A DNA stretch of 64,000 bases from an uncultured Pseudomonadales bacterium (GTDB lineage Bacteria; Patescibacteriota; Microgenomatia; UBA1400; UBA1396). The translations under genes and the position numbers were made by a program. The stretch is taken from NCBI GenBank assembly GCA_964511175.1, contig CAZEEI010000001.1, positions 147,187-211,186 of the forward strand, given 5' to 3'. Below, piece by piece: positions 6,758-35,634 of this stretch; the first letter of the stretch is position 1; every line of letters starts with the position of its first letter. Under the pieces are notes generated by a model. It searched no databases. It was not told the origin of the DNA and worked only from the letters and a program-made list of their open reading frames with translations.

Positions 6758-7840
6758 ATGCCTACTGCCAACGCGCCGGTCGCGACTACCAAAGATACTA
6801 AACCTACGGTGAAAAAAGCCAAAATTAAATTGGCGATTGATAAAGATGCTCTAAAAAAAGTTAACCTGGTGGCGGTGGCCTATTCGCACGTGGAGCGCGA
6901 GTGGTTTCCTACCAAAGAAGCCTATGAAGCGGAAGTGGAGGTGGAAGATCGGGCTCAAGAGGTTTTGGATGAATTAGAGAAACTAGGTATTCCGGCGCGC
7001 GGCTATGCCGGCAACCAGTACTTTTTAACTAATTTGTTGGTCGATCAGCCCAATTTGGTTCTTAATTTGGTGGATACGCTGCGGGGCAAAGATGCCTTAC
7101 AAACTTCCGTGCCGGCGGCGTTGGAGCTGTCTAATATTCCCTACACCGGCGCAGGTATGGCTGGAATGGTAATCAGCAACAACCGCAACCTCACCAAGCG
7201 TTTGTTAATGGCCTACGATATCCCGACTCCCGATTTTCAGTTTATCCGGCGCGCCGGTACCAAGGTGACAGAAGATCTTGGTTTCCCCCTCATTGTCAAA
7301 CTCAACGAAAGCGGCGGTAGCGTTGGTATCGACAATAAGGCCGTCAAGGAAAATCAAAAAAGTGTCCAGAAGAAAGTCGACACCATGGTTTCTACTTACA
7401 AAGTGCCGGTGATTGTGGAGCGCTTCATTGCTGGCCCGGAAATCACGGTGGTGGTATTCGACGACGGTAATAAAAAACACGTCGTTATGGGCGAGAAAAT
7501 TTTCCGCAAGAAGCCAGACGGCAAATATTACTTCACGTCTTTGGAAAGCTACGACGATCTACACGCCTACAAATACAAATTTTTAGACGACGAGGCTCTA
7601 GAAAGTAAAATCAGCCGTTTAGCCGTGCGGGCTTTTAACGCCTTGCAATTTAAAGATTACGCCAAGTTTGACGTGCGTATGGATAGTGAAACCGGCGTCC
7701 CCTACTTTACCGATTGCAACGCTAACACGGCGTTTGGTCCGGATCGGGGACTGCCCATGACCGAGGTACTGGCGATGTATGGCGTGTCGTTTAGCGATAC
7801 GTTAGCGAGTTTGATCAGCAAGTATGTTAAGCAACTCTAA
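6758..7840 (+). CDS. ATP-grasp ligase (D-Ala-D-Ala ligase-like fold)
   Basis: PLIVKLNESGGSVGI and VIVERFIAGPEITVVVF ATP-grasp nucleotide-binding patterns. Confidence 0.6.
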   Translation: MPTANAPVATTKDTKPTVKKAKIKLAIDKDALKKVNLVAVAYSHVEREWFPTKEAYEAEVEVEDRAQEVLDELEKLGIPARGYAGNQYFLTNLLVDQPNLVLNLVDTLRGKDALQTSVPAALELSNIPYTGAGMAGMVISNNRNLTKRLLMAYDIPTPDFQFIRRAGTKVTEDLGFPLIVKLNESGGSVGIDNKAVKENQKSVQKKVDTMVSTYKVPVIVERFIAGPEITVVVFDDGNKKHVVMGEKIFRKKPDGKYYFTSLESYDDLHAYKYKFLDDEALESKISRLAVRAFNALQFKDYAKFDVRMDSETGVPYFTDCNANTAFGPDRGLPMTEVLAMYGVSFSDTLASLISKYVKQL

Positions 7841-8444
7841 TAATGCCGGTGGCATGCAGCGTTTTCTGCAGATTTCCGAATCGCATTGCGGGGCGGCAGT
7901 ATTACAAATGTTGCTAAGCAACTTAGGTGTACTGGTTTCTCAGGACGAAATCGCCGCGGCGGCTGGCGCCACCCATACGGTTGAAGAGTATGGTTTGCGG
8001 GTGGATCAGTTGATTCTGGCTACTCAGCGACTCGCTCCTCAGGCGCAGTTTTGGTATAAGAATGAAGCCAATCTCACTGATTTAAATACGTTGGTTAACC
8101 AGTACGGTTGTCCGGTGGGAGTAGAGTGGCAAGGTGTTTTCGGCCAAGATGAGGAAGAGGAAGAAGAAGGCGAAGAAGATTATGGCCACTATAGTATCGT
8201 GACTAAGCTTGACCTCGATTACGACACCGTAGTGCTAGTGGATCCCTACCGCGACTTTGGCCTAAAGGATCGTTACTTTAACGTTGGCGAATTTCTCGAG
8301 CGCTGGTGGGATGTGAACGAAGTGTTTGACCAAACCGATAAATATTCCCGTTTGGTGGAAGATTACCATTTATTATTTATCGTGGTGCCACGCGGCGCCG
8401 CTTTTCCCAAATTGTTAGATCTACGTCATACCTGGGACGGCTAG
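7824..8444 (+). CDS. papain-like cysteine peptidase, C39/BtrH-like
   Basis: Q...ESHCGAAVLQMLL catalytic Cys motif, later GHYSIV His; start overlaps the ATP-grasp gene by 17 nt; poly-Glu linker. Confidence 0.5.
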   Translation: MLSNSNNAGGMQRFLQISESHCGAAVLQMLLSNLGVLVSQDEIAAAAGATHTVEEYGLRVDQLILATQRLAPQAQFWYKNEANLTDLNTLVNQYGCPVGVEWQGVFGQDEEEEEEGEEDYGHYSIVTKLDLDYDTVVLVDPYRDFGLKDRYFNVGEFLERWWDVNEVFDQTDKYSRLVEDYHLLFIVVPRGAAFPKLLDLRHTWDG

Positions 8445-8686: not shown

Positions 8687-8792
8687 CCTCCTTTTTTGTG
8701 GCTATCTTTATGTTGCTTAACTTTTGTCCGGTAGTCAAGGGAGGATAACAACGGTTGTGTTACAATCTGAGCTAGTTAGATAAGGAGAACCT

Positions 8793-10667: not shown

Positions 10668-11555
10668 CTATTGAAACGCTGACCACAGCTTACTGACGTC
10701 ATGGGGTCTGACCTCATCGACGAGTTCCGTGGTGGCGCCGGCGCGCGACGGATGGCGGTCCAGAAACGTCGCTTGGTCTTGCCGTTCGTACAGTACACCG
10801 ATCGCGATTTTATTTTCTAAGTCCGCCGCCGTCGCGCGCGCTTGTTCCCAGTTAGTTGGATCGTAATTTTTCATTTGGGCGATATCGTAAACCCGTTCCT
10901 GGTACCACTCATGTGGGGTCGACTTATTGTAGGTGGGACAACTTTGCAAAACCTCAACAAAGCTGAAACCTTTGTGCTGAATGGCTCGTTGGAATACACC
11001 AGTCATATGGTGGATGTCGCCAGAGAAAGTGCGGGCGGCGAATTGAGCGCCCAGCTCCAAAACCAAGCGGATTGGGTTAAGTGGGGTCGCCACTGGACCG
11101 TTAGGGGCCGAGTTCATCGCAACGCCTGGTTTAGTAGTGGGCGAAGCTTGTCCCGTAGTGAGGCCGTAGTTGAGGTTATTATGGAGGACAAAGGTGAAAT
11201 CATAGTCGTGGCGAACCGCCGTAATGAGGTGGTTGATGCCTTCCGCCAGGGTGCCGCCGTCGCCGCCAAAAGCCAGTACCTTGACCCGGCGGTTCGCCAC
11301 CGCCGCCCCGCTGGCCAGCGGCAGGACGCGCCCGTGGAGGCCGTGAATCCGGTAGCCGTCGATCTTATCCGAGTGGTTACCGTGGCAGCCGATGTCGAAG
11401 GCCAGCAAAACCTGGCAAGGATGAAGATTTTCTACTTGCAGGGCGCGCCGCAGGGCGCCGTGGATGCCGTAGTTGCCGCAGTTAGTGCACCAGGTGTGAA
11501 TATTCGGCGACAGATAATCGCCCATTTGTACTGGTTGGTCGCTGTGGCAGCTCAT
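10668..11555 (-). CDS. korB: 2-oxoacid:ferredoxin oxidoreductase beta subunit (TPP-binding)
   Basis: CxxCG..., GDGG...NN.YGLT TPP-binding signature typical of OFOR beta subunits. Confidence 0.85.
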   Translation of the reverse strand: MSCHSDQPVQMGDYLSPNIHTWCTNCGNYGIHGALRRALQVENLHPCQVLLAFDIGCHGNHSDKIDGYRIHGLHGRVLPLASGAAVANRRVKVLAFGGDGGTLAEGINHLITAVRHDYDFTFVLHNNLNYGLTTGQASPTTKPGVAMNSAPNGPVATPLNPIRLVLELGAQFAARTFSGDIHHMTGVFQRAIQHKGFSFVEVLQSCPTYNKSTPHEWYQERVYDIAQMKNYDPTNWEQARATAADLENKIAIGVLYERQDQATFLDRHPSRAGATTELVDEVRPHDVSKLWSAFQ

Positions 11556-13300
11556 GCGGACTCCTTGTTGAAGTGTTCGAGAATATCGTCCACAAAGAAC
11601 GGTCGGCCGTCGAACTTTAGCCAGCGATCGGTAAAGGTAATCCCAGTGTGCTGGGTGATCAGGCCACCCAGTTGGCCGGTGGCGTTGTTTTCCACGATAA
11701 TCAACTTTTGAGCTGACTGCGCAAATTTTTTCAACACCATCGTTTTTAACGGCCAGAGATATTCGTAGTGCAGGTAATTAACGCTGGGACCACCTTGTTC
11801 AGCCAAGGCTTGAATGGCATCCAGCACTGGTCCTTTTACACTTCCCCACCCCACCAGCGACCACTGCGCTTGCTCTGGACCATAAACCACCGGCTCCGGC
11901 AATTCCGCTGCTAAAGCATCAAGTTTGCGCAAACGTTTGGCGTACATCGCCGCGCTGGCTGCGCCATCCTCCGTAATGGAACCGTCGGTGGAATGTTCGT
12001 CGCCGTTGGCGTCATAAGTAGCGTCGGCTTGGCCTGGCAGCCAGCGCGGCGAAACTCCGGAATCGGTGAATGCGTAACGGTCGCTGGGTTTGAGTTGGTC
12101 AAGTTGATTGTCCGGCACGAGTCCCCGTTCGATCGGCAAGTTGTCCGGTATTTTACTCATTTGCCACAATGATTCCGCCACATTCTTTTCGGTCAATAAG
12201 ACGGCCGGCAGTTGGTATTTTTCGGCTAAGTTTAAGGCGTGTTGGACTAAACGGTAACTGGACTCACCATCGCTGGCGGCTAAAACTAGCCTGGCGAACT
12301 CACCGTGACCGCTGTAAATAGCGAGGTTAAGGTCGGCCGCGCTGGTCCAGGTAGGTAAACCAGTAGCCGGTCCGGGCCGCTGAGCCAGGACGCACACCCA
12401 GGGACACTCGATCATGCCTGCCAGGGAAAGCGATTCGGTCATCAGGTCAAAGCCGCCGCCGGAAGTGCCACACAGCGTCCGCGCCCCCATAAACATACTG
12501 CCGATGGTGGTTTGGGCTACACCGATTTCGTCGTCTAACTGCTGAACTAACATTCCTACTTCGCCGGCGACTTCGGCCAAATAAGTGAGGATGGTGCTGG
12601 CGGGTGTCATGGGATAGGAATAGTAGGCGCGGACGCCGGCGGCGGCCGCGCCGAGGGCAGTGAGGTGGTTGCCGCTAATAATCGCATCGTCTTGGGTGTT
12701 TGCCGATCGCGCGAATGGCCAAACCACAGGTGTAACTTGGGTTAGTTTTTGTTCAAAGCCGCGTTGAGCGCAGACGAAGTTGCCCTCTAGTACCTGTGGT
12801 TTGGCCGCAAAGACTTTAGTAAGTACTTGTTTGATCGTGGCTAAGTTTAGTCCCAGCACCTGCCAGAGAGCGCCCATTAGGACGGTGTTGGCCATGATCC
12901 GTTTGCCGCAGACTTCGATCGAAACTTGGAGGGCGTCGACAAACTCCACGGTAATCCGGTTCTCGTCCAGCCATTGTTTTTCGTCCGGTTTTAAATCGAG
13001 ACGCGGAATGTCGTGAAGGATGCGTCCGCCAGGGTTGACGGTTTTCAGGTAGTGGTGCAGGGAAAAACGGCTCAAGCTCAACAGAATGTCGCACCCTCCG
13101 GCGCTGGAATAGATTGGTCGGTCGCTTAAATCAATCTGGTGCGAAGCTTTCCCGCCTTCAATCAACGACGGATATTCACGGTAACTAAAAGTGTAACAAC
13201 CCTCCCGCTTGAAAGCGCGACCCAGCAGCTCGCCCATCGAGGTCAGACCCTGCCCGTTTTCGCCAACCAACTTAATGCTTAAACGATGCTGATCAACCAC
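11552..13300 (-). CDS. korA: 2-oxoacid:ferredoxin oxidoreductase alpha subunit (gamma-alpha fusion)
   Basis: N-terminal gamma-like GENGQG region fused to pyrimidine-binding alpha domain; 4-nt overlap with korB. Confidence 0.85.
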   Translation of the reverse strand: MVDQHRLSIKLVGENGQGLTSMGELLGRAFKREGCYTFSYREYPSLIEGGKASHQIDLSDRPIYSSAGGCDILLSLSRFSLHHYLKTVNPGGRILHDIPRLDLKPDEKQWLDENRITVEFVDALQVSIEVCGKRIMANTVLMGALWQVLGLNLATIKQVLTKVFAAKPQVLEGNFVCAQRGFEQKLTQVTPVVWPFARSANTQDDAIISGNHLTALGAAAAGVRAYYSYPMTPASTILTYLAEVAGEVGMLVQQLDDEIGVAQTTIGSMFMGARTLCGTSGGGFDLMTESLSLAGMIECPWVCVLAQRPGPATGLPTWTSAADLNLAIYSGHGEFARLVLAASDGESSYRLVQHALNLAEKYQLPAVLLTEKNVAESLWQMSKIPDNLPIERGLVPDNQLDQLKPSDRYAFTDSGVSPRWLPGQADATYDANGDEHSTDGSITEDGAASAAMYAKRLRKLDALAAELPEPVVYGPEQAQWSLVGWGSVKGPVLDAIQALAEQGGPSVNYLHYEYLWPLKTMVLKKFAQSAQKLIIVENNATGQLGGLITQHTGITFTDRWLKFDGRPFFVDDILEHFNKESA

Positions 13301-13766
13301 GCGCCTCCCCTTGGCCGCTCAGGTATGGCAAAAATTGTTGCGTCCAGGTGTCGACCAAGTTCATTTGGCCATACGGGTCACCGTTGAGTTTCAGCGGTCT
13401 GAACAAAACGGTACCGTGTTGTTGTTCCCAAACCTCACGCAGTTGATCGATGCCGGTGTTAAAAAACACGTTTTCGTAGCGGATGTCACCCAAGCCAATC
13501 AACCCGGTAACTTTGCCGGTTAAGTCCAGCTTTTTCATCTCATCTATTAACGGGATAAAAAAGGGATTAAGACTGCCGCGCGCCCAAGTGGAAGTGGCCA
13601 AAATAAAGTGGCTATTGTCTCGAATCAAGTCCGGTTTAGTTTGCTCAGTACGATGTAGCGCTACTTCCCATCCGCTTCCCCGCAGACCGGTCGCCACCCT
13701 TTCCACTACGCTTTCCACGTTACCGGAGGTGGAGGCATAGAGGCAATGAATGGTTGGATTGGCCAT
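13293..13766 (-). CDS. flavodoxin
   Basis: YASTSGN FMN-phosphate loop, GLIGLGD motif; overlaps the korA start (operon). Confidence 0.8.
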   Translation of the reverse strand: MANPTIHCLYASTSGNVESVVERVATGLRGSGWEVALHRTEQTKPDLIRDNSHFILATSTWARGSLNPFFIPLIDEMKKLDLTGKVTGLIGLGDIRYENVFFNTGIDQLREVWEQQHGTVLFRPLKLNGDPYGQMNLVDTWTQQFLPYLSGQGEARG

Positions 13767-13862
13767 AGTAAGTTGGGTGACTCGACCAGGTCACTGTAAC
13801 ACAAACCGGGTTGTGGTGCCAGTTTGCTTTCTGCTGCCCCGACTATCTTTTTTGCTGAATTC

Positions 13863-13917
13863 ACGATAGAAGTAACTTTCACAATAGAAGTAAAGCTACG
13901 TCAACACTTCTACTATG
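13863..13917. repeat. conserved intergenic element copy B
   Basis: Homologous to 2923-2974; about 65 nt upstream (minus strand) of the flavodoxin -10 box. Confidence 0.55.
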
Positions 13918-14046
13918 AAAGTAAGGAACGTTGCGTTACCCTACTTCTAGGTTAAAAAAGTCAAAAAAAGATATATAAAACTAAAGTAGCAGCCTTGTTA
14001 CCTACTCACTTCTAAAAGAATCAGCTCGGATGGTAAAAGTGTACCG

Positions 14047-14460
14047 CTAGGACCGCTTAATGTGCACGACGTTTTGGGGTAATTTTTGCAGGTAAAGACG
14101 CAGAAGTGCGTTGCACTGTGGGGTGTTCAAATTATTGATATCAATGACAAACGTGCCCCGTTTGGCTACTAACTGCCAGCCCAAATCGGGAGTAATCTTC
14201 AGGATAAAGTTAGATAATTGCGCCTCATTCCAAGCTAGTGGGTCAAGTCGGAAATCTGGTTTTTCTAGGATGAGTTGGTGCTTGCATAATAATTCGAACA
14301 TTGTCTCCACCGGATAGCTGTCGATCTCTGCAATTAGGGCATCAAGCAAACCGCGTAACCAAATAGCTTGCGCCTCTAACAAAGGACTATCTTTGAGCCC
14401 GCTCAACTCCTCGGCGCCGTTTTGGATTTCTATAATTTGTTTAGCGACTGATCTATTCAT
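14047..14460 (-). CDS. paralog family 1 member (unknown function, about 140 aa)
   Basis: Shares LL..H.L.L.K, LPW(N/D)E..L..F.L, (V/I).IDL..L, YQ..(Y/F)P with four neighbouring ORFs. Confidence 0.5.
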   Translation of the reverse strand: MNRSVAKQIIEIQNGAEELSGLKDSPLLEAQAIWLRGLLDALIAEIDSYPVETMFELLCKHQLILEKPDFRLDPLAWNEAQLSNFILKITPDLGWQLVAKRGTFVIDINNLNTPQCNALLRLYLQKLPQNVVHIKRS

Positions 14461-14469
14461 GTGTTGCTG

Positions 14470-14478
14470 ATTGTAACA
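14470..14478 (-). promoter_or_regulatory. extended -10 box TGTTACAAT, 9 nt upstream of ATG (leaderless)
   Basis: Reverse complement of attgtaaca immediately upstream of the 14047-14460 start. Confidence 0.4.
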
Positions 14479-14580
14479 CTACTTGAATCTTGATTACACG
14501 GTCCGTCTCAAAGAAAACGGCGATGGGACCTATTCCCAGCCGCTTTCTCGCAGACCAGCCGCCACCCTCTCTACCACTGT
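14476..14580. pseudogene. chimeric relic: hicB 5-prime fragment (sense) fused to flavodoxin 5-prime fragment (antisense)
   Basis: 14479-14534 matches 15881-15936 (hicB codons 8-26) at 52/56; 14533-14580 matches flavodoxin 13664-13712 at about 80%; junction at CTAYTTCCCA microhomology. Confidence 0.55.
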
Positions 14581-14605
14581 AGCATAAATGGTCAAAGTCA
14601 CCGAG

Positions 14606-15046
14606 TTAGCGACGTGGTTTGGAAGGATGCTGTAGCTGGATCTGCTGAGGGTAGTGTTCTTGGTACAGGCGCATGAGTTCTCGAGCCTGCGAGACGTTCA
14701 AGCTACCCAGGTCGATGGTGACCGGACCACGACTGGCCGCTAAACTAAACCGCTCGGCAAAACCGACAATCAGGTAGAACTCACCTAGTTTGTGAAGATT
14801 CCATTCGAGGTTAACTGGCTGTCCACTGTAGAAAGTCGGCCAAGCCAAGAGTAAGTTGTGTTTAGCGAGTAAATTGATGAGGACCAAGGTTGGATTAGCG
14901 CTAATATTTTCCACCAGACCCTCGAGTAGGCCAATTAGGTAAAGGGCATTGGCAGCCGAGGATGCTGGGTCATGGTCTCTGGTTAAATCCTGGAAGACTC
15001 CGGCAATCTCGGTTAATCGGTCCGTATTGTTGGTTGGTCTCTTCAT
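14606..15046 (-). CDS. paralog family 1 member
   Basis: Family motifs as above. Confidence 0.5.
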   Translation of the reverse strand: MKRPTNNTDRLTEIAGVFQDLTRDHDPASSAANALYLIGLLEGLVENISANPTLVLINLLAKHNLLLAWPTFYSGQPVNLEWNLHKLGEFYLIVGFAERFSLAASRGPVTIDLGSLNVSQARELMRLYQEHYPQQIQLQHPSKPRR

Positions 15047-15095
15047 AATGCTGACACCCTATAACATTTCAAATAGTATAACTACTTAACATAAC

Positions 15096-15542
15096 CTAAA
15101 GAGGTAGCCGGAAGGGATTGCGGGAGAGAATCTGTCCGGGATATTTATTTTGATAAATTTGATGTAGTTGTTGGGTTTGGATATCCAAGGCGCCTAAATC
15201 AATTTCCACCGGACCGTTTTTTTCGGCTAAGTGCCAGGCCGGAACAATCAGGTTAAATTCGGCCAGAGCCTCTTCGTCCCAAGGAAGGAAGGGGGTCATT
15301 TTTCCTGGTTTAAACACCAGTAAGCCGCAAAAAGTGAGCAACTCCAGCAGGGCCATACCGGGATCGGCATCAACTTCACTGATTAATTGATTAAGGAGAT
15401 TACGCAAGAGAGCCGCTTCCGCAACCAACCTTTCTGGGAATCGATTACCGGCTTGTTCATGTAAAAGGTAAACATCTAGGTTTGCGGTTTGTCGCTTGAT
15501 AGCGGCAATGCGCTTAGTGTGGCTAGACTCAATTTTACTCAT
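15096..15542 (-). CDS. paralog family 1 member
   Basis: Family motifs as above. Confidence 0.5.
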   Translation of the reverse strand: MSKIESSHTKRIAAIKRQTANLDVYLLHEQAGNRFPERLVAEAALLRNLLNQLISEVDADPGMALLELLTFCGLLVFKPGKMTPFLPWDEEALAEFNLIVPAWHLAEKNGPVEIDLGALDIQTQQLHQIYQNKYPGQILSRNPFRLPL

Positions 15543-15546
15543 ATCT

Positions 15547-15555
15547 CGATTGTAA
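15547..15555 (-). promoter_or_regulatory. extended -10 box TGTTACAAT, 6 nt upstream of ATG (leaderless)
   Basis: Reverse complement of attgtaaca adjacent to the 15542 start codon. Confidence 0.4.
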
Positions 15556-15625
15556 CATTTTTAATTTTTCGACAAGCTTCGATCCACTTGAATATTAGTA
15601 CTACGAGTGGTACTATTAACACTAA

Positions 15626-15877
15626 ATGACTAAAAGGGACAAAAGAATTCGCAAACTTTTTACCAATCCTAAGACAATTAGTTTTGCCAAACTTGATTCT
15701 ATTCTGGATAACTTAGGATTTGAGTGCCGACAGCCACGATCAGGGAGCAGCCACTACGTCTATACTAAAGGTCAGATCCAAATTACCGTGCCGTATAAAA
15801 AACCGTACGTTAAGGAGATCTACATTAAACGTATAACCGAAATAATTGAGGAGATATATGAGCCAAAAGAATCTTAA
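15626..15877 (+). CDS. hicA: HicA-family mRNA interferase toxin
   Basis: GSSHYVYTKGQIQITVPYKKPYVKEIYIKRI resembles the HicA/YcfA core; immediately followed by hicB. Confidence 0.6.
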   Translation: MTKRDKRIRKLFTNPKTISFAKLDSILDNLGFECRQPRSGSSHYVYTKGQIQITVPYKKPYVKEIYIKRITEIIEEIYEPKES

Positions 15878-16205
15878 ATACTACTTGAATCTTGATTACA
15901 CGGTCCGTCTCAAAGAAAACAGCGACGGGACTTATTTTGCCGAAGTTGAGGAACTACCAGGTTGTTTAACCGAGGGCGATACCAAGATTGAAGCCTTACA
16001 AATGATTGATGATGCTAAACGGGTGTGGCTGGAAGTAGCTTTAGAAAAAGGTTTGAGGATTCCGGAACCAGCCAGCGACGAGTTTAGCGGTAAATTAAAC
16101 GTGCGTTTGCCCAAATATTTACACCGTCGGTTAAGTTACCGCGCTAAACAAGAGGGAGTGAGTCTCAACACGCTGATCAGTACCGGTTTATCGACACTGG
16201 TGTGA
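15858..16205 (+). CDS. hicB: HicB-family antitoxin
   Basis: YTVRLKENSDGTYFAEVEELPGCLTEGDT...GKLNVRLPKYLHRRLSYRAKQEGVSLNTLI is a canonical HicB with RHH tail; RBS GGAG. Confidence 0.8.
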   Translation: MSQKNLKYYLNLDYTVRLKENSDGTYFAEVEELPGCLTEGDTKIEALQMIDDAKRVWLEVALEKGLRIPEPASDEFSGKLNVRLPKYLHRRLSYRAKQEGVSLNTLISTGLSTLV

Positions 16206-16231
16206 ACCGTCAACAACTTACAATCCAACAT

Positions 16232-16681
16232 TTACGCCACGGAATCATCATCAGGATCGCCGGGAGAGATGAACACCACTTTGCTGGGAAAGTTGGTCTG
16301 GTAGATACTCAGCAAAGACACTAGGTCGGTACCGGTTAAAGGACGCAAATCGATCCTAATATGCTGTGGTAGATTAACCAAATAATATCGATCGTGACCA
16401 TCGGGCTGATTGTTATAAATAGCTAAGGTAAAACCGGCCAACGTTTTTTCATTCCACGGCAACATCGGCCGCCCAACCACCTTTTTGTCCAAGACTAAAT
16501 GATGTTGCCCTAGTAAGTTGAGGGTATTTTGTAAATCGGCCGCCGCCAAATCCTCGGCCAATTCGTCAACTAGGGTGCGCAGATACTGTACCTTCGCCTG
16601 CCAGACGCGGCTCGATTCTGTCTCTTGCAACTCCTGCGCCGACTCAATAATTGCTGATAATTTATGTTGACGCGATATCAT
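16232..16681 (-). CDS. paralog family 1 member
   Basis: Family motifs as above; 4-nt overlap with the next member. Confidence 0.5.
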   Translation of the reverse strand: MISRQHKLSAIIESAQELQETESSRVWQAKVQYLRTLVDELAEDLAAADLQNTLNLLGQHHLVLDKKVVGRPMLPWNEKTLAGFTLAIYNNQPDGHDRYYLVNLPQHIRIDLRPLTGTDLVSLLSIYQTNFPSKVVFISPGDPDDDSVA

Positions 16682-17073
16682 TTGTTTTTCCGTTGATAGA
16701 AATTACACAACCAATCGGTATTGGCTTCATCCAGTGGGCTTAAATCGAATTTTATTTTTCGGCCAAAATTAATTAGCCGCCAAACACCGTCACGAATGTT
16801 GGTTAAAGTAAACTGCGCCAGCATCTTCTCATTCCAAGGTAGGATTTTGCCGCCCGACTGACCCGCGTCCGCAGTTTTATCCAGTAGTAAATGTTCTTGC
16901 CGCAGACGGCGGATTAAATAGTCTCGATTAGTCTCTGAATTAGCCAGCCAATCGTTAATCATGCCTAGTAGGGTCAGACCCAGACCCCGTTGTTCCTCGG
17001 GATCTTTTTTTCCAGCCAACTCTGCCGCAGTTTTCCTAATAGTTTCCAGCGAAGGTGCGTTTACCATGACCAC
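16678..17073 (-). CDS. paralog family 1 member
   Basis: Family motifs as above. Confidence 0.5.
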   Translation of the reverse strand: MVMVNAPSLETIRKTAAELAGKKDPEEQRGLGLTLLGMINDWLANSETNRDYLIRRLRQEHLLLDKTADAGQSGGKILPWNEKMLAQFTLTNIRDGVWRLINFGRKIKFDLSPLDEANTDWLCNFYQRKNK

Positions 17074-17086
17074 CAGATTATAACAT

Positions 17087-17095
17087 TCCTTTTCT
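17087..17095 (-). promoter_or_regulatory. extended -10 box TGTTATAAT, 9 nt upstream of ATG (leaderless)
   Basis: Reverse complement of attataaca adjacent to the 17073 start. Confidence 0.4.
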
Positions 17096-17145
17096 GTACA
17101 ATACCGATCCAGTTTGTTACACTGCCGCCAATAGAAAGGGGTTTT

Positions 17146-17478
17146 ATGGGTGAGGATTTAGGTGATGCCGAGCAGGAACAGTTAGTAGAAACTAAACAAG
17201 GCAGGATCATGACTTTTGAGGAAATCCAAACACTAGTGCGGCACGCCGAACAATTAGCCAGGCAAATCGGTTTTTCCACCAACCTATTAGTGCAGGGTGA
17301 ATTATTACGAGATTTGACGGAGACGGATCGTCAACTAACCGACTTGGTCGAAAAACGGACCGGTATTGGTTTTACCGACGTACCGGATGTGTTCAGAATG
17401 TATGGCGAAATTATTAGTTTTCACGAACAGATTAGCGATTTAGTGTCAGGACAACCAAATCTGGTTAACCGGCGTTAA
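17146..17478 (+). CDS. hypothetical acidic protein
   Basis: Internal ATG with AAAGGGG RBS; longer ORF version overlaps paralog 5. Confidence 0.35.
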   Translation: MGEDLGDAEQEQLVETKQGRIMTFEEIQTLVRHAEQLARQIGFSTNLLVQGELLRDLTETDRQLTDLVEKRTGIGFTDVPDVFRMYGEIISFHEQISDLVSGQPNLVNRR

Positions 17479-17514
17479 TTACCCGATCCTAGTACGTTCC
17501 GGTTTGGCCACCAA

Positions 17515-17724
17515 TCAACGGTTAGCTTTACTAGTATCGTATTGGGACTTAACTTTGCGCCGCAAAGCGCTGACCTCTTCGCCTAGTTTAGCCAATTGTT
17601 CCGCCAATAAAGCCGGGTCATATTTAGACAACGTATTGGTTAAACTCTGTATAGAGAAAATACCGTCTTGGATATCGGTGTTAACCATTTCGCCCAGTTC
17701 AACCCTTTTTAGTTTTTTAGCCAT
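17515..17724 (-). CDS. hypothetical small coiled-coil protein
   Basis: 69-aa ORF with upstream TGTTATAAT box. Confidence 0.3.
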   Translation of the reverse strand: MAKKLKRVELGEMVNTDIQDGIFSIQSLTNTLSKYDPALLAEQLAKLGEEVSALRRKVKSQYDTSKANR

Positions 17725-17758
17725 AACTCTTGCTTTCTAGTTTTCCTGTTCGGCCCGA

Positions 17759-19867
17759 TTATAACACGTGTTTGGTTGGTTTAATCCGTAACCGTGCATC
17801 CAAAATCCGCACTCCCCTGCCCTGCGGCAAGACAACCACCGGATTAAGATCCAGCTCGCTAATCTCCGGATGATCGTGGAGTAGTTGGGAAACTCGACCC
17901 AGACATTCGATTACGGCTTTACGATCAAGCTTGGGTTGCCCGCGCATTCCCTGAAAGATGGGACTGAACTCGACGTGATCAACCAGACGAATTGCGTCGC
18001 GCCGCGTCAGTGGTATCAAACCAAAGCGAGCCGACTTGAACACCTCCGTGTAGATACCACCCAGACCGAATAGCAGATAAGCCCCTACTTCTGCCTCGCG
18101 TTGTCCACCGATGATTGTTTCAAAACCGTGGTCGATTTGTTCGGCTATCAGGAAGCCGGTGATTTTGGCCCGCGGCGCGCGGTGGGCGACGTTTTTCATT
18201 AATTTAAGAATGCTGGCCAGCGCGTTGTCTGGCGTGACGTTGAGCAGTACCCCACCTACGTCGCTTTTATGAAGGATGTCGGGCGAAACAATCTTGAGCA
18301 CACAGGGTGCGCCGATTTGTTGGACAGCGGCGGCCACTTGGTTTTCGCTGCGCACTAAACGGTGCCGCAGAATTGGCAAACGGTAGGCTTGGAGCAGGGC
18401 CAAAATGTCCGGTTCTAATAAATAACCGTCTTGTTTGGCGCGGTGCAGGATTCGGTGGACGGCACGTTTGTCGACGCCGCGGAAACGGAATATTTCGCGC
18501 GGCTTAAGGCGTTGCCAGGGACGCCAGCGCTGCAGAGCGGCCAGGGCCTGGATGCCGGTTTCCGGGAAGGAAGCAGTGGCGACGCCGCCTTGTTCGAGGG
18601 TGTTAACGCCTGGTTCAACCAGCTCATCGCCGATAAAGTTGACGACCAGTGGTTTACGGCTGGCGCGTTTGCACTCAACTAGGGCGCGCGCGGTGGCGGT
18701 GACCTGGGTCATGGACTGGGGAGTAAGAATGACGAGGAGGGCGTCAACTTGCGGATCAGAGAGCACCGCGCGCGCCACCGCTTGGTAACGTGACGCGTCG
18801 GCATCGCCAAGAATATCTACCGGATTAGTAATGGCCGCTGCCGCCGGCAATATTTTTTTCAATTGTCGAATCGTAGCGGGAGTTAAGGCAGCTGGTTTGA
18901 GATCTTCTGCGGCCAGCTGGTCAGCGGCAATCACCCCGGCGCCACCGGCGTTAGTGACCACCGCCACGCGGTTCCCTTTGGGTAAGCGGTTGTGAGCGAA
19001 ACAATCGGCCAACAAGAAAAACTCCTCCAGCGACTGCGCCCGGATCAGACCGCTTTGGGCAAAGAGAGCTTGGTAAATGGCCTCGCTGCCACCGATCGCC
19101 CCGGTGTGAGAGCGGGCCGCGGCCGCGCCGGCCGCGGTGCGGCCGGACTTTAAGACGATAATCGGTTTCGGCCGCGGCCCGCTCTGAATCGACCGCGCCA
19201 ACCGCAATAAATCCGGCAAATCGTTGAGCTGTTCCACGTACAACATGATCACACTCGTATCAGCGTCGTGCCAAAGATAGGTCAGAATTTCTTGTTCGCC
19301 AACCATCGCTTTGTTGCCAATGCTGATAAATTTGGAAAAACCCAGATTCAAACCCCGCGCGTAATCCAGCGCCGCTGTCCCCAGTGCGCCGCTCTGCGAC
19401 ACAAAAGCAACCCGCCCTGCTGGCGGTAAAACCGAGGCAAACGAGGCATTCATTTTTAACGCCGGGACAATCACTCCCAAACAGTTGGGGCCGATCAAAG
19501 TGATATGGTAGTGTTTGGCGATTTTAACCAGTTCCGCTTCCGCCCCCTGGTTGCCGCTCTCGCGGAAGCCCGCGCTGATCACCACTGCGGCCGGGATTTT
19601 TTTCCGTCCGGCTTCGGCCAAAACGATTGGCACTACGGCTGCTGGCACGGCAATCACCGCTAAATCGACGTGCTGGGGAATGGCCTTAAGATTAGGCCGA
19701 ACTGCCAAACCGTAAAGTTCGCCCCCCTTTGGATTAACGGGAAAAACTTTGCCGGCATAACCTTGTGTTGCCAAGTTTTTCACCAAGTCGTTACCCACAC
19801 TGCCCACTTCATGTGAGGCGCCGATGACGGCGATCGATTGGGGGGCAAAGACGGCGTGCAGGTTCAT
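17759..19867 (-). CDS. acetyl-CoA synthetase (ADP-forming), fused alpha-beta
   Basis: CoA-binding N-terminal domain, succinyl-CoA-synthetase-like middle, ATP-grasp C-terminal region; about 700 aa. Confidence 0.85.
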   Translation of the reverse strand: MNLHAVFAPQSIAVIGASHEVGSVGNDLVKNLATQGYAGKVFPVNPKGGELYGLAVRPNLKAIPQHVDLAVIAVPAAVVPIVLAEAGRKKIPAAVVISAGFRESGNQGAEAELVKIAKHYHITLIGPNCLGVIVPALKMNASFASVLPPAGRVAFVSQSGALGTAALDYARGLNLGFSKFISIGNKAMVGEQEILTYLWHDADTSVIMLYVEQLNDLPDLLRLARSIQSGPRPKPIIVLKSGRTAAGAAAARSHTGAIGGSEAIYQALFAQSGLIRAQSLEEFFLLADCFAHNRLPKGNRVAVVTNAGGAGVIAADQLAAEDLKPAALTPATIRQLKKILPAAAAITNPVDILGDADASRYQAVARAVLSDPQVDALLVILTPQSMTQVTATARALVECKRASRKPLVVNFIGDELVEPGVNTLEQGGVATASFPETGIQALAALQRWRPWQRLKPREIFRFRGVDKRAVHRILHRAKQDGYLLEPDILALLQAYRLPILRHRLVRSENQVAAAVQQIGAPCVLKIVSPDILHKSDVGGVLLNVTPDNALASILKLMKNVAHRAPRAKITGFLIAEQIDHGFETIIGGQREAEVGAYLLFGLGGIYTEVFKSARFGLIPLTRRDAIRLVDHVEFSPIFQGMRGQPKLDRKAVIECLGRVSQLLHDHPEISELDLNPVVVLPQGRGVRILDARLRIKPTKHVL

Positions 19868-19989
19868 GGGCAGGATCCTGTGGTTAGTGTAACAAAATTA
19901 TAGCCCGGCTGGTTATGGAAGCAAAAACAATGCGTTCCAGATTGATGCGATATAGTCATATATGCATATATGTTGTACAATAAGCGCCT

Positions 19990-20835
19990 ATGCCAAATCA
20001 ACATCGCTACGATATACCAGAAGGTACGATTGATATCGAAGATAAAGATCTGAAGGCAATACGCCAAAGAACTGAGGCTAAACGCATTCGGGGTCTAGCT
20101 GATGGTTTTCTAACGCAAGTTAGTAGACGTCCCCTGACCAGTTTTAGCCCTGCCGAACTAGATTTATTATTGGCTAGCTGTGAATTTTCTGATTTTTCGG
20201 CACAATTAAGCGAAGAAAGAGGTTTGGCAGATGTGGTTGAGGTTACAGTAAGTATTGGTATTATGGTTGTAATAATTGCTTTTGTTTACGCCCATTTCCA
20301 AGTTGCCGAACGTCAGGCGTCGCTGTTTACCACTGATTTTTTAGGAGCAATATCGGTAGCGATGCTGGCTACAGTTGGTGGTCTTAGTATTCATACCTTA
20401 AAAAAGAAGCTAGCCAGTATGTCAGAGCAGTCTTCTTTTCGTGGGGTTGTTTTGGATCATCAAGCACTTAATTTAGATGAGATTTCCGATTTTGTTGATT
20501 CTGATGCTAATACTGCTCACCTTAATCGCCTGCAGCAAATTGTTACCGCCACTGCTAAATTGGTTGACGAGGAAATAAAATCGGGACGAACTATGGGTCT
20601 TACTCTGGAACAAGCACCAGTTTTTGCCCAGGCTGTGGCCGCCAACCTCAACCGTGATCAGCGGAATTTCTTGCGTTCAGAATTAGAGCACAGGCAAAAG
20701 AAAGTGGCACCGACTAGTCCAGCGGTAGACGACCAAAGCTCCGGACAAGAAAACGATCAAGATCGTTTGACTGAGCTGTATTATCGGTCAATACGGCAGC
20801 GTCATGCGGCGTTGAGTTCGAATGAGTCTCGTTAG
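19990..20835 (+). CDS. membrane paralog family 2 member
   Basis: SPAELDLLLASCE motif followed by TM helices; C-terminal A.AAANLN motif. Confidence 0.45.
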   Translation: MPNQHRYDIPEGTIDIEDKDLKAIRQRTEAKRIRGLADGFLTQVSRRPLTSFSPAELDLLLASCEFSDFSAQLSEERGLADVVEVTVSIGIMVVIIAFVYAHFQVAERQASLFTTDFLGAISVAMLATVGGLSIHTLKKKLASMSEQSSFRGVVLDHQALNLDEISDFVDSDANTAHLNRLQQIVTATAKLVDEEIKSGRTMGLTLEQAPVFAQAVAANLNRDQRNFLRSELEHRQKKVAPTSPAVDDQSSGQENDQDRLTELYYRSIRQRHAALSSNESR

Positions 20836-20842
20836 ATGCTAA

Positions 20843-21556
20843 TTGACTAGAGTCAAATTTGCTACAATAACCATGACTATGGTTAGGTTGAGACGGTCGG
20901 TTAAAAACGAAGCGGATCTAGGTGGTTTAGATTCCCTTTTCCCCTCCGCTGAGCAATCGGCCGAAGCTTTTTTTCAGCAAATTCAAGCCACGCCGATTGA
21001 AGAATTATCGCGTGGACAAGTAGACTTACTGCAGGCTTGTCGGGAGCTGGTCGAGCGAACCGAAAATAAGCCGGTTGATTACCTACTTTTTTTGCTTCTA
21101 ATCGCCAATATTGTCTATTTGGTGGTCGGTTTAGCGGCGCTGGATCCTCGGGCTCCTACTGTCGAGTACGTGGCTGTGCTGGCTCTCCCCTTCGCTAGTG
21201 TATTATTAGCTGCCTTGGTTGCCTTGATCACCGGTTTACACGAAGCGCCACCTTTTTTCGATGATATCGATTGGGACCGGGAATTAAGTCAATCAGCACC
21301 GACCTTTCATCGTAAAGCCAGATATTTAGCAACCGCCGCGGCCGCCAATTTAAATATTGATTTTGTTCCCGCCGACGCCGAAATTTTTGCTAAAAAACTA
21401 ATGTCGCTGGTGCCGCCGGAATGGGGTAAACCACTGCGCCAGTCGGCTATTCGTCATCATCGGCAGGTTAAGCAAGATAAGCGGATCGAATCTTTAGCGA
21501 GGGATGATAGTAGTATTGTTCAGGCCGTTAAGCGACGTCTTCGTAATCACCGTTAG
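20843..21556 (+). CDS. membrane paralog family 2 member
   Basis: QVDLLQACRE motif, TM helices, ATAAAANLNIDF. Confidence 0.45.
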   Translation: MTRVKFATITMTMVRLRRSVKNEADLGGLDSLFPSAEQSAEAFFQQIQATPIEELSRGQVDLLQACRELVERTENKPVDYLLFLLLIANIVYLVVGLAALDPRAPTVEYVAVLALPFASVLLAALVALITGLHEAPPFFDDIDWDRELSQSAPTFHRKARYLATAAAANLNIDFVPADAEIFAKKLMSLVPPEWGKPLRQSAIRHHRQVKQDKRIESLARDDSSIVQAVKRRLRNHR

Positions 21557-21625
21557 CCAGATCATGCGGTATAATCTGATCTAGATAACAATCCATCTTT
21601 TTACTGTGTATCACTACACTACTAC

Positions 21626-22270
21626 ATGAAAAAAAGTAACTATCGATGGTACTATAGGACTATGAATAAACCGTCTTCCCACCCCGACACTGAGCCTCGT
21701 TTCACCGAGTATACGGTACAGAGTCAAACCGAAGCCTGGCTCAAAAGAATTCAGCGTGCCAAGTCCATATTTCAGTTGCCATCGCCGGATTTTACACCAG
21801 CGGATCTTGATTTGTTGCGTGCCTGTTGGGAACATACCCGCGTTTTAGATCGTGAATCGACGGGCAGAACAATCGTTGCCCTTTTAGCGATTAATTTGAT
21901 TTTGTACTTAGCCGGTACTGGTCTGGATCCCGCTATGGTCGAAAAAGTGATTGGTGTTTTACCAGTAGTCAGCACTACAGCCGGAGGGTACTAGGCCTTA
22001 AGGAAACATTCGTATCAAAAACCCCTCGCCCACCGGATTCTTACGGCACCCTGGGACGAGGAGACTGGATTTAGTGACCAAGAAGCAACGCGAATAGTGG
22101 TGGCAAGATTGGCCAACCAGGTGAAGGAATTCCAAAATGCTGGCGTGAGTGTGAGTGTCTGGAGTAATCAGGCAACGGAATTAGCCCGTCGAGTAGTAGC
22201 GGCCACCGCTAATCGCCGCCAAGAATTGCAGGTTCTTAATCGCGGTGCCCATCAGCATAACCGTAACCGT
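21626..22270 (+). pseudogene. membrane paralog family 2 member interrupted by in-frame TAG at 21992-21994
   Basis: ORF 21626-21994 continues in the same frame after the TAG for 92 more codons whose sequence (VVAATANRRQEL) is homologous to paralog C-termini. Confidence 0.5.
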
Positions 22271-27660: not shown

Positions 27661-28543
27661 AAGGTTTGGCTGGTAGTGAAAATAGCAGTGAACCTAGAAT
27701 GCCAGGAATAATGGTGTCAAAAAGAAACAGCAACAAACTTACACTCACCGCCACTTCAGCAGCCACACCAAACGGAGCCAGCAAATAAATCGCGACCCCT
27801 TCCCGAATACCCAGACTGCCAATAGTGATTGGTACCAAATTAGTCAGGAGGACCAGCGGGAAAACCATTAGTACCGTTGCTACAGTTACGGACTGGAAAG
27901 CGTTCAGCAGTAAATAAGCCTGAAGGAAGTAAACCGACATGGTGAGGAAAGAGAGAATCAGGAGAATATTCGACAGCGGCCAAGAAACTAAGGTGAATCC
28001 CCGGAGGATATTTTTAAGCAGTTCAAAAGGAATGAGGTCGGTAAGGGCTTTATTAAGACGGCGGAACTGGTAAAAGAAAAGTAAAATTACAGCCAAGATA
28101 CCGATAATCACGATAGAGTTTGCCTGCGTGAGCAGTCTTTGACCGCCCAGTAAGACAAAGAAAATGACGATCCATAGTTCGGATACTTTATCGACGAAAG
28201 TCAGTGAGCCAAGTTGGAGTTTGTTGCCCTTCATGCCTATTACGCGACCCAGCTCCCCGATTCTAGAGGGGGTGACGAGTCTGGTTCCTCGAAGATAGGA
28301 TTGCATTGCCCCCCAAAAAGTATTGTCTGAATGCAGTTGTTTTGATAATAAATACCATTTGTAACTTTTGATAAGGATATGAATGATGATTAATATCATG
28401 GCTAATAAAACATTTTTTTGTTGAACTGAAAGCAGGGATTGCCAGACGGAATAAGTAGCAACTTTACCAAGAATAAAAATTAACAAGATAATGGTTAACA
28501 ATAATCGGCTGAAAAATAAAAAATTTTTTTCTTTCACATCCAC
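27638..28543 (-). CDS. flippase-like (UPF0104 / LPG-synthase TM-like) membrane protein
   Basis: Multi-TM pattern typical of flippase-like proteins co-encoded with GT2 enzymes. Confidence 0.45.
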   Translation of the reverse strand: MDVKEKNFLFFSRLLLTIILLIFILGKVATYSVWQSLLSVQQKNVLLAMILIIIHILIKSYKWYLLSKQLHSDNTFWGAMQSYLRGTRLVTPSRIGELGRVIGMKGNKLQLGSLTFVDKVSELWIVIFFVLLGGQRLLTQANSIVIIGILAVILLFFYQFRRLNKALTDLIPFELLKNILRGFTLVSWPLSNILLILSFLTMSVYFLQAYLLLNAFQSVTVATVLMVFPLVLLTNLVPITIGSLGIREGVAIYLLAPFGVAAEVAVSVSLLLFLFDTIIPGILGSLLFSLPAKPYVQKNRS

Positions 28544-28560
28544 GCTTCTTTCTTAATTAT

Positions 28561-33828: not shown

Positions 33829-33867
33829 GAAACGAGTATAACAAAAGGGATTTGATAATCAACAACT

Positions 33868-34260: not shown

Positions 34261-34269
34261 GGTTCCTTC

Positions 34270-34629: not shown

Positions 34630-34649
34630 ATATACTTTCTGATTAGTTT

Positions 34650-35033: not shown

Positions 35034-35049
35034 ACGATGCTCCTAAGAT

Positions 35050-35478: not shown

Positions 35479-35634
35479 ATCTTCCTCCCCATTTTCCGCG
35501 ATTATAGGCTAGCAAGCGCACTACGTCAAAGAGCGTGTTGGTCGAGGTTATACTCCGCAAGCACCACTGGCCGCAATTATGGCGTTATGCTAGAGTAAAA
35601 AGGTAAGCTGAAAAATTAAAAAAAAGGAATCAGT

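What the first reader, a model, noticed from the sequence alone, without database searches (positions are those of the whole stretch)
14047..17478. Tandem array of five highly diverged paralogs of an unknown ~140-aa protein, with a HicAB module embedded
Five consecutive minus-strand ORFs (14047-14460, 14606-15046, 15096-15542, 16232-16681, 16678-17073) encode the same unrecognised family. Conserved landmarks are LL..H.L.L.K, LPW(N/D)E..L..F.L, (V/I).IDL..L and YQ..(Y/F)P. Pairwise identity is low, consistent with diversifying selection. A hicA-hicB pair on the opposite strand splits the array. This resembles orphan immunity-protein or defence-island arrays more than housekeeping, and I cannot match the family to any named domain.
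Basis: seen in the sequence. Interest (0 to 1): 0.8.

Follow-up and report, generated by a model that had tools for sequence, protein, structure and literature searches.

The report
Five-gene orphan paralog array with HicAB
Five neighbouring genes really do encode old, diverged copies of one small protein that has no detectable relative in any public database; they sit with a HicAB toxin-antitoxin pair in an accessory insert that splits a conserved energy-metabolism operon, and their function is still only a guess.

Summary
Five minus-strand ORFs (137-149 aa, 24-34% identical) are true paralogs: leave-one-out HMMs recover each left-out copy at E 1e-11 to 1e-23 and hit nothing else in the window. 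A HicA/HicB pair on the plus strand splits the array. New here: a 60-nt, 93%-identical hicB fragment lies between p1 and p2.

The genes lie in a ~4-kb insert between an ADP-forming acetyl-CoA synthetase and a flavodoxin-OFOR operon. These flanks are adjacent in one Patescibacteria relative and separated by a different insert (HigBA-like pair) in another. The lineage is very poorly sampled, which largely explains the orphan status.

Synonymous sites are saturated, so diversifying selection cannot be tested. The layout resembles a homogeneous polyimmunity locus, but no toxin link exists. My best functional guess, paralogous non-enzymatic binding or neutralising proteins, has low confidence.

The parts
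14047..14460 (-). p1, paralog 1 (137 aa)
   Evidence: ORF. Left out of the HMM, it is recovered at E 1.1e-22. The identical gene occurs on two independent Logan contigs.
14470..14478 (-). TGTTACAAT extended -10-like motif, 9 nt upstream of the p1 ATG
   Evidence: The motif occurs 7 times in the window against 1.2 expected; 6 of the 7 lie within 40 nt upstream of an ORF start on the same strand. Promoter function is inferred.
14475..14534 (+). 60-nt remnant of the hicB 5' region (codons ~7-26), 93% identical to 15877-15936
   Evidence: the repeat finder family D1. A 39-nt exact core occurs twice against 0 expected. Local alignment shows sharp borders. An in-frame TAA lies just upstream.
14606..15046 (-). 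p2, paralog 2 (146 aa)
   Evidence: left-out E 6.8e-23. TGTTATA at 15060-15066 starts a 9-mer that ends 11 nt upstream of the ATG.
15096..15542 (-). p3, paralog 3 (148 aa)
   Evidence: left-out E 1.2e-16.
15549..15557 (-). TGTTACAAT motif 6 nt upstream of the p3 ATG, in the 83-nt AT-rich divergent spacer shared with hicA
   Evidence: spacer GC 0.31.
15626..15877 (+). hicA-like toxin gene (83 aa)
   Evidence: PF07927 E 1e-4, 22.8 bits, below the gathering score of 27. PHROG 8887 'toxin' 1.5e-5. A G-S-S-H stretch is visible in the translation.
15858..16205 (+). hicB antitoxin gene (115 aa from ATG 15858; the ORF opens at TTG 15846)
   Evidence: PF05534 1.5e-11 and PF15919 6.8e-9, both above gathering scores. 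PHROG 497 HicB-like 5e-18. The 115-aa form is the public gene call.
16232..16681 (-). p4, paralog 4 (149 aa); its ATG overlaps the p5 stop by 4 nt (ATGA)
   Evidence: left-out E 1.2e-15.
16678..17073 (-). p5, paralog 5 (131 aa from GTG 17073; more likely 129 aa from ATG 17067). It is the most divergent member and lacks the C-terminal tail.
   Evidence: left-out E 1.4e-11. TGTTATAAT at 17077-17085 ends 9 nt before ATG 17067.
17146..17478 (+). Orphan ORF (110 aa, acidic, pI 4.6), divergent from p5 and not a family member
   Evidence: It is a public gene call. It has no homolog and no Pfam, NCBIfam, PADLOC or PHROG hit. hhalign against the family gives probability 0.08%.
17515..17724 (-). Orphan ORF (69 aa, basic), first gene of the insert after ACD. 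TGTTATAAT at 17758-17766 lies upstream of it.
   Evidence: No family hit.
17759..19867 (-). Upstream flank: ADP-forming acetyl-CoA synthetase (ACD, 702 aa)
   Evidence: Pfam CoA_binding, Succ_CoA_lig and ATP-grasp_5. 68% identical to the syntenic gene in L003.
10668..13766 (-). Downstream flank: flavodoxin (13293-13766), 2-oxoacid:ferredoxin oxidoreductase alpha (11552-13300) and beta (10668-11555)
   Evidence: Pfam families listed for the Logan contig genes. Synteny with L003-L018.

Best explanation
SHOWN. The five genes are real, anciently duplicated paralogs of a lineage-restricted family of small, soluble proteins without an evident N-terminal signal peptide. Each has an N-terminal helical hairpin and a confidently predicted ~90-residue alpha/beta domain. 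The invariant residues are almost all hydrophobic core positions plus one Trp, one Asp and one Tyr, so no catalytic constellation is visible.

The genes lie in a ~4-kb accessory insert (13767-17758) that interrupts an ACD-flavodoxin-OFOR gene string in a poorly sampled, Patescibacteria-like bacterium. The same gap in the nearest sampled genome holds different cargo, including a HigBA-like pair. Here it holds an intact HicAB pair, a young hicB fragment and two other orphan ORFs. The gap therefore behaves as a sink for dispensable or selfish genes.

INFERRED. p1, p2, p3 and p5 each carry their own extended -10-like motif 6-11 nt before the start codon, which suggests leaderless or near-leaderless transcripts. 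p4 is probably translationally coupled to p5.

INFERRED, low confidence. The proteins are non-enzymatic binding or neutralising proteins. Each paralog would recognise a different partner through the length-variable loops of the alpha/beta domain. In that case the array works like a homogeneous polyimmunity locus: a stock of functionally equivalent protectors against toxins or effectors, built from a new family.

I put about 0.85 on the descriptive part and about 0.25-0.3 on the immunity-like mechanism. The confidence value given is for the whole statement.
For: Paralogy.

Real proteins: the C-terminal domain model from only five sequences reaches pLDDT 90.4 and pTM 0.79, with four of five models at 89 or above. 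All five are public gene calls.

Cytoplasmic and soluble: GRAVY -0.01 to -0.54; no signal-peptide-like N-terminus on reading the translations.

No catalytic signature: the invariant columns are L, L, L, W, L, F, L, L, D, L, L, Y. Indels cluster in two loops.

Accessory insert: in L004, ACD is followed directly by flavodoxin after a ~105-nt gap. In L003 the gap holds a 115-aa orphan, a membrane protein, and a Gp49 (PF05973) plus HTH_3 pair. GC of the array genes is 0.45-0.50, against 0.55-0.57 for ACD and OFOR.

Selfish-module sink: intact HicAB plus a 93%-identical 60-nt hicB remnant.

Architecture: the layout matches published polyimmunity features, namely tandem, same-orientation, distantly related paralogs with short spacers (-4, 49 and 145 nt) and no polymorphic-toxin cassettes between them (PMC3482391).

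Promoter-like motifs.
Against: Nothing links the family to any toxin. It has no homolog in any genome, so adjacency to toxin genes cannot be shown.

No polymorphic-toxin, secretion-linked or defence gene flanks the array.

It matches none of the Pfam immunity families. Known immunity families are usually widely spread by horizontal transfer, and this one is not.

Extended polyimmunity loci were reported only in Proteobacteria, Bacteroidetes, Firmicutes and Actinobacteria.

Separate promoter-like motifs per gene differ from the single polycistronic message proposed for polyimmunity loci.

The array is old (dS saturated) and shows no sign of recent turnover.
Confidence: 0.3

Rival explanations
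1. The genes are lineage-specific paralogs with an ordinary cellular role, such as adaptor, scaffold, regulatory or chaperone-like proteins. They look orphan only because the lineage is unsampled and small proteins evolve fast. On this reading there is no conflict function, and the position next to HicAB is incidental.
For: Every window protein checked is a singleton at 90% identity, including the ACD enzyme. The nearest genome is only 60-68% identical in ACD, flavodoxin and OFOR. Neighbouring ORFs (17146-17478) are equally orphan. A JGI metagenome scan with ACD finds nothing. The paralog divergence needs only about 3 times the ACD rate. The genes are co-oriented with the flanking operon.
Against: The genes are absent from the syntenic gap in both relatives that keep ACD next to flavodoxin, so they are dispensable for that operon. 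A five-fold expansion of a non-essential family is unusual if the genome is small, as Patescibacteria genomes usually are (my own knowledge; genome size not checked). The region also collects TA modules.
Confidence: 0.3
2. The family is functionally tied to HicAB. The C-terminal beta-beta-beta-alpha-beta core would be a very diverged HicB-N-like (partial RNase H-like) domain, and the paralogs would act as DNA-binding-less solo antitoxins or decoys for HicA-type toxins.
Confidence: 0.08
3. The array is an anti-phage defence system, or the remains of a mobile element or phage (for example anti-defence genes).
For: It is an accessory insert with a TA module. Its GC is lower than the flanks.
Against: There are no PADLOC hits and no PHROG hits for the paralogs. 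tblastn finds nothing in 50,697 phage or 72,556 plasmid records. The IMG/VR scan is negative. The best BFVD fold match has E 0.036. There is no integrase, no tRNA and no flanking repeat of an element.
Confidence: 0.1
4. The proteins are accessory subunits or assembly factors of the flanking ACD / flavodoxin / OFOR pathway.
For: They share strand and immediate neighbourhood with the pathway genes.
Against: They are absent from all 16 related OFOR loci. There are no conserved Cys or His residues for cofactor binding. Relatives keep the pathway genes without them.
Confidence: 0.04
5. The ORFs are not real genes, that is, chance ORFs or decayed pseudogenes.
For: None beyond the lack of homologs.
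Against: Five intact ORFs keep a shared hydrophobic pattern despite saturated synonymous change. The domain model is confident. Indels preserve the reading frame. All five are public gene calls.
Confidence: 0.03

Closest known systems
Homogeneous polyimmunity loci (tandem paralogous SUKH, Imm6/11/28/33/36/41 genes; Zhang et al. 2012, PMC3482391)
   Same: Four or more tandem, same-orientation, only distantly related paralogs of one small protein family. Spacers are short. No polymorphic-toxin cassette lies between them. The location is accessory.
   Different: The family is not one of the known immunity superfamilies. No member anywhere is adjacent to a toxin, because no other member exists. 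The array is split by an antisense HicAB pair. Each gene seems to have its own promoter-like motif. The host lineage (Patescibacteria-like) is outside those reported to carry extended polyimmunity loci.
HicAB type II toxin-antitoxin modules (Makarova et al. 2009, PMC2701414; paper found but not read, cited from my own knowledge)
   Same: The embedded pair has a HicB with a HicB_lk_antitox N-domain and a C-terminal ribbon-helix-helix domain, preceded by and overlapping a small HicA-like gene.
   Different: HicA scores below Pfam's gathering threshold (22.8 vs 27 bits). Neither protein has a PDB relative by sequence. This applies only to the embedded pair, not to the five paralogs.
The syntenic ACD-flavodoxin gap in the Ca. 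Woesebacteria MAG CAVVNJ010000003 (locus L003)
   Same: It has the same flanking genes and the same orientation. It also holds a type II TA pair and orphan ORFs.
   Different: Its cargo is unrelated: Gp49/HigB-like plus XRE-HTH, a 194-aa membrane protein and a 115-aa orphan. No member of the five-paralog family is present.
PH-like and other small beta-sheet-plus-helix domains (FACT Pob3/SSRP1 middle domains, ribosomal L38e, TolR/FtsH periplasmic domains)

Membership tests
HicAB type II TA (embedded pair only) | Antitoxin with HicB domains (HicB_lk_antitox N-domain plus RHH/HicB C-domain) | tested here: met
   PF05534 at 44.5 bits (gathering score 21) and PF15919 at 36.4 bits (gathering score 27). 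PHROG 497 at 5e-18.
HicAB type II TA (embedded pair only) | Toxin with the HicA_toxin domain | tested here: inconclusive
   PF07927 at E 1e-4 but 22.8 bits, below the gathering score of 27. PHROG 8887 'toxin' at 1.5e-5. A G-S-S-H stretch is seen in the sequence. No PDB sequence match.
HicAB type II TA (embedded pair only) | Bicistronic arrangement with hicA upstream of, and overlapping, hicB | tested here: met
   hicA 15626-15877 and hicB ATG 15858 overlap by 20 nt on the same strand.
HicAB type II TA (embedded pair only) | HicA toxicity (mRNA cleavage) neutralised by HicB | not testable with these tools
   Needs an expression experiment.
Homogeneous polyimmunity locus | Four or more tandem, same-orientation, distantly related paralogs of one family | tested here: met
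   Five paralogs, 24-34% identical over aligned codons, all on the minus strand.
Homogeneous polyimmunity locus | Short intergenic distances implying one polycistronic message, with no interruption by toxin genes | tested here: inconclusive
   Spacers are -4, 49 and 145 nt. However, an antisense HicAB pair (a TA toxin, not a polymorphic-toxin cassette) splits the array, and four genes carry their own -10-like motif.
Homogeneous polyimmunity locus | The family is an immunity family: members elsewhere lie next to polymorphic-toxin genes, or it belongs to a known Imm/SUKH superfamily | tested here: not met
   No Pfam hit even at E up to 1. No homolog in 5.8e9 clusters or 1.84e9 representatives. 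No toxin domain in the neighbours.
Homogeneous polyimmunity locus | Gene content of the locus varies between strains | not testable with these tools
   No close genome is available. The gap's content does differ between the window, L003 and L004, but at a much greater phylogenetic distance.
Known anti-phage defence systems (PADLOC-DB) | Match to any model of a defence-system protein | tested here: not met
   0 families at E up to 1 for the five paralogs and four neighbours.
HicB-N-like / RNase H-like partial fold | Profile or structural similarity to HicB N-domains | tested here: not met

The most novel reading that the evidence does not exclude
A previously unseen protein family, possibly with a new alpha/beta fold, forms a five-member immunity- or antitoxin-like array in a Patescibacteria-like bacterium. 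Each paralog would neutralise a different toxin or effector. This would be the first polyimmunity-type locus in that radiation, and it sits in a recombination hot spot that repeatedly captures TA modules inside a core fermentation operon.
Probability: 0.2. Interest if true: 0.6.

Novelty: categorically new. Interest (0 to 1): 0.4.

Why it matters
If the paralogs are protective binding proteins, they add a new family, and possibly a new fold, to the immunity/antitoxin repertoire. They would also show that ultra-small, episymbiotic-type bacteria invest in multi-copy protection.

Independent of function, the locus is a clean example of an accessory hot spot inside a conserved ACD-flavodoxin-OFOR gene string that captures different TA modules in different lineages.

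'Categorically new' is meant narrowly: a protein family with no detectable sequence relative and no convincing structural relative. It is not a demonstrated new mechanism. The most mundane cause is that the lineage is almost unsampled, so the practical importance is modest until relatives or experiments exist.

Tried and rejected
- **Family libraries.** Pfam, NCBIfam, PADLOC and PHROGs scans of all five proteins gave only noise, for example Pan3_PK at E 0.022 and a GvpC repeat at E 0.022.
- **PDB sequence search.** A profile search gave a best E of 0.23.
- **Protein databases.** A word-indexed profile search of 5.8e9 clusters with the full-length profile, and again with the C-terminal-domain profile at E up to 10, returned only self hits. 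A full HMMER scan of 1.84e9 representatives also returned only self hits.
- **Contig and record scans.** JGI metagenome contigs (p2), IMG/VR (p3), and phage and plasmid records by tblastn all gave nothing.
- **AFDB Foldseek.** The library was not available.
- **Positional analog in L003.** I tested whether the 115-aa orphan at the same position in L003 is a remote homolog. hhalign gave probability 0.7%, so I rejected this.
- **Second run of small ORFs.** I tested whether the minus-strand ORFs at 33868-36340 are related or themselves paralogous. hhalign gave probability 0.5%, and they show no significant pairwise BLAST similarity, so I rejected this.
- **Neighbouring membrane proteins.** 19990-20835 and 20843-21556 are not paralogs (E 1.5).
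- **Unit-duplication model.** I considered repeats of the unit [p, p, hicAB]. I rejected it because adjacent paralogs, not unit-equivalent ones, are most similar, and because the hicB fragment is 93% identical while the paralogs share no DNA similarity.
- **dN/dS test.** Not possible because dS is saturated.
- **RNA elements.** Rfam gave no hits in 13000-18500, and the window has no tRNA.
- **Terminator and sigma-70 scans.** Neither is above the shuffle expectation.
- **Sample identification.** A search for the SRA run ids in the literature found nothing.
- **Closer relatives.** A JGI metagenome scan with ACD found nothing.


Full report
**1. The observation**

A MAFFT alignment shows 16 invariant columns.

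The quoted motifs are approximately right. The truly invariant positions are L.W (of LPWNE), D and L (of IDL..L) and Y (of YQ), plus hydrophobic core positions.

The plus-strand pair between p3 and p4 is a HicAB module. HicB hits PF05534 and PF15919 above their gathering scores. HicA hits PF07927 at E 1e-4, below its gathering score, and a PHROG toxin family at 1.5e-5. hicB most likely starts at ATG 15858 and overlaps hicA by 20 nt; that 115-aa form is also the public gene call.

**2. A true orphan family**

None of the five proteins matches Pfam (E up to 1), NCBIfam, PADLOC or PHROGs, apart from noise. A profile search of PDB sequences gives a best E of 0.23.

A profile search of 5.8 billion protein clusters returns only the window's own proteins. 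The same holds for the more conserved C-terminal half, even at E up to 10. A full HMMER scan with no word index, over 1.84 billion representatives of about 15 billion proteins, returns five hits at E up to 1e-3, all of them the query proteins.

The leave-one-out result calibrates this negative. A relative as distant as the paralogs are from one another would score about 55-90 bits and would have been found. JGI metagenome contigs, IMG/VR, phage records and plasmid records are also negative.

**3. Structure**

Modelling the C-terminal part alone (p2 residues 51-146, with a five-sequence alignment) gives a confident model: pLDDT 90.4, pTM 0.79, and four of five models at 89 or above. The element order is alpha, beta, beta, short alpha, beta, beta, beta, alpha, beta.

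So the domain is probably real and well folded, but it has no convincing known structural relative in the libraries I could search.

The proteins show no signal-peptide-like N-terminus on reading the translations (no predictor was run). They are mildly acidic to basic, pI 5.2-9.1. No conserved polar constellation suggests catalysis. Length variation concentrates in two loops of the alpha/beta domain.

**4. Genomic setting**

On the minus strand the order is:
- ACD, an ADP-forming acetyl-CoA synthetase
- orf69
- orf110, on the plus strand
- p5 and p4
- hicB and hicA, on the plus strand
- p3 and p2
- the hicB fragment
- p1
- flavodoxin, OFOR-alpha and OFOR-beta

The closest OFOR-alpha genes among species-representative genomes are nearly all from Patescibacteria (CPR) MAGs. 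The best is a Ca. Woesebacteria MAG (L003), with 63% identity in OFOR-alpha, 68% in ACD and 60% in flavodoxin. The window's own genome is not among those representatives. Every window protein I looked up is a singleton at 90% identity, known only from one 240-kb NCBI contig and two Logan read assemblies. A JGI scan with ACD found no close relative. The lineage is very poorly sampled.

In L004, ACD is followed by flavodoxin after about 105 nt. In L003 the same gap holds 1.5 kb of unrelated cargo: a 115-aa orphan, a membrane protein, and a Gp49/HigB-like plus XRE-HTH toxin-antitoxin pair. In the window the gap is about 4 kb.

None of the 16 related loci contains a family member. The array genes have GC 0.45-0.50 and hicA 0.37, against 0.55-0.57 for ACD and OFOR.

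The array therefore lies in an accessory insert at a variable spot inside an otherwise contiguous fermentation gene string. That spot has captured TA modules independently in two lineages.

**5. Additional anatomy found here**

(a) A 60-nt stretch in the p1-p2 spacer (14475-14534) is 93% identical to codons ~7-26 of the intact hicB, including a 39-nt exact core. It has the same orientation and sharp borders, and an in-frame stop lies just upstream. It is a remnant of a second hicB copy. The independent Logan contigs L001 and L019 appear to end at or near this repeat, as expected for a real repeat. The remnant is much younger than the paralog duplications, since the paralogs share no DNA-level similarity.

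(b) The 9-mer TGTTAYAAT, an extended -10-like sequence, occurs 7 times in the window against 1.2 expected, and none of 100 shuffles reached 7. Six of the seven lie within 40 nt upstream of a same-strand ORF start. Copies end 9, 6 and 9 nt before the ATGs of p1, p3 and p5 (taking ATG 17067). p2 has TGTTATAGG ending 11 nt before its ATG. No Shine-Dalgarno-like sequence is visible. p4's ATG overlaps p5's TGA (ATGA).

From this I infer individually promoted, leaderless or near-leaderless transcripts for p1, p2, p3 and p5, with p4 translationally coupled to p5. This rests on motif evidence only.

**6. Age and selection**

Nei-Gojobori dS is above 2.2 or undefined for all ten pairs. Third-position identity is 21-38%, and dN is 0.73-1.09. 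The duplications are old, and diversifying selection cannot be tested.

If all duplications post-date the split from the L003 lineage, the family need only evolve about 3 times faster than ACD. Poisson distances are about 1.2-1.4 for the paralogs and about 0.39 for ACD. That is unremarkable for small accessory proteins.

p1-p3 are mutually closest. p5 joins the family mainly through p4.

**7. Interpretation**

The descriptive conclusion is firm: a lineage-restricted family of small, apparently non-enzymatic proteins, expanded by old tandem duplication inside an accessory, TA-collecting insert.

For mechanism, the closest described architecture is the homogeneous polyimmunity locus of Zhang et al. 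(PMC3482391, read). Such loci have tandem, same-orientation, distantly related paralogs of one small family, with short spacers, no toxin cassettes between them, and functionally equivalent rather than sequentially acting products.

I adopt 'paralogous binding/neutralising proteins, immunity-like' as the most likely mechanism, but at only about 0.25-0.3. The defining evidence for an immunity family is adjacency to toxins somewhere, or membership of a known Imm/SUKH family, and this was tested and not met.

An ordinary, non-conflict cellular role in an unsampled lineage is about equally likely. The other rivals are weaker or nearly excluded:
- A HicB-N-like solo-antitoxin role: hhalign probability 0.04%.
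- Phage or defence origin.
- Accessory subunits of the flanking pathway.
- Non-genes.

**8. Verdict**

The family is new in the narrow sense: it has no detectable sequence relative and no convincing structural relative. The near-total lack of sampled relatives of the host lineage is the simplest reason for that.

Interest is moderate (0.4). This is a clean, well-delimited orphan family with a confident domain model and an unusual location. There is no functional handle yet, and no long-standing question becomes testable because of it.

Noticed in passing
window 14475-14534 vs 15877-15936: A 60-nt, 93%-identical direct repeat. It is a fragment of the hicB 5' coding region sitting in the p1-p2 spacer and abutting p1's promoter-like motif. 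Independent Logan assemblies appear to end at or near it.
   Followed up: yes
window 8758-8766(+), 14470-14478(-), 15549-15557(-), 17077-17085(-), 17758-17766(-), 29012-29020(-), 36380-36388(-): TGTTAYAAT (extended -10-like) is enriched: 7 occurrences against 1.2 expected. It lies just upstream of ORF starts, often only 6-11 nt away, which suggests leaderless mRNAs may be common in this genome. The shorter TGTTAYA also precedes flavodoxin (13795-13801), ACD (19888-19894), the NYN gene (33837-33843) and orf110 (17115-17121).
   Followed up: partly
window 13860-13893 and about 13905-13950 (spacer between p1 and flavodoxin): An 18-nt tandem direct repeat, TTCAC(G/A)ATAGAAGTAA x2 (family D8). Further inverted copies of the AGAAGTA core lie upstream of the flavodoxin-OFOR genes. 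This could be an operator site.
   Followed up: no
window 33868-36340 (-): A run of five small same-strand ORFs (130, 119, 127, 142 and 122 aa), most ending in ...T/N-(D)-R, lies upstream of a NYN-domain gene (33295-33828). The four looked up are public gene calls (the 122-aa ORF 35972-36340 was not looked up). The 122-aa ORF has no Pfam hit; the other four were not scanned. They show no significant pairwise BLAST similarity and are unrelated to the five-paralog family.
   Followed up: partly
window 6758-8444 (+): A D-Ala-D-Ala-ligase-like ATP-grasp gene is directly followed by a stand-alone C39-peptidase-domain gene. A HlyD-like gene lies at 42692-44068. This could be a peptide (graspetide- or bacteriocin-type) maturation and export set.
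   Followed up: no
window 28000-30200: There is a marked GC trough (0.31-0.36 against a window mean of 0.48) over a 533-aa ORF with no Pfam hit. It is flanked by an LPG_synthase_TM gene and a 758-aa double GT2 glycosyltransferase. It is probably a horizontally acquired envelope-glycan segment.
   Followed up: no
L003 8099-9505 (Ca. Woesebacteria MAG CAVVNJ010000003): The syntenic ACD-flavodoxin gap in the nearest genome carries a Gp49/HigB-like plus XRE-HTH TA pair, a 194-aa membrane protein and a 115-aa orphan ending in ...LPWR. In L004 the two flanking genes are adjacent. The gap is therefore a recurrent insertion spot.
   Followed up: yes
window 19990-21994 (+): Three consecutive ORFs (281, 237 and 122 aa; the first two have hydrophobic segments) have no Pfam or NCBIfam match. 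They lie divergent from ACD, and the first two are not paralogs of each other.
   Followed up: partly
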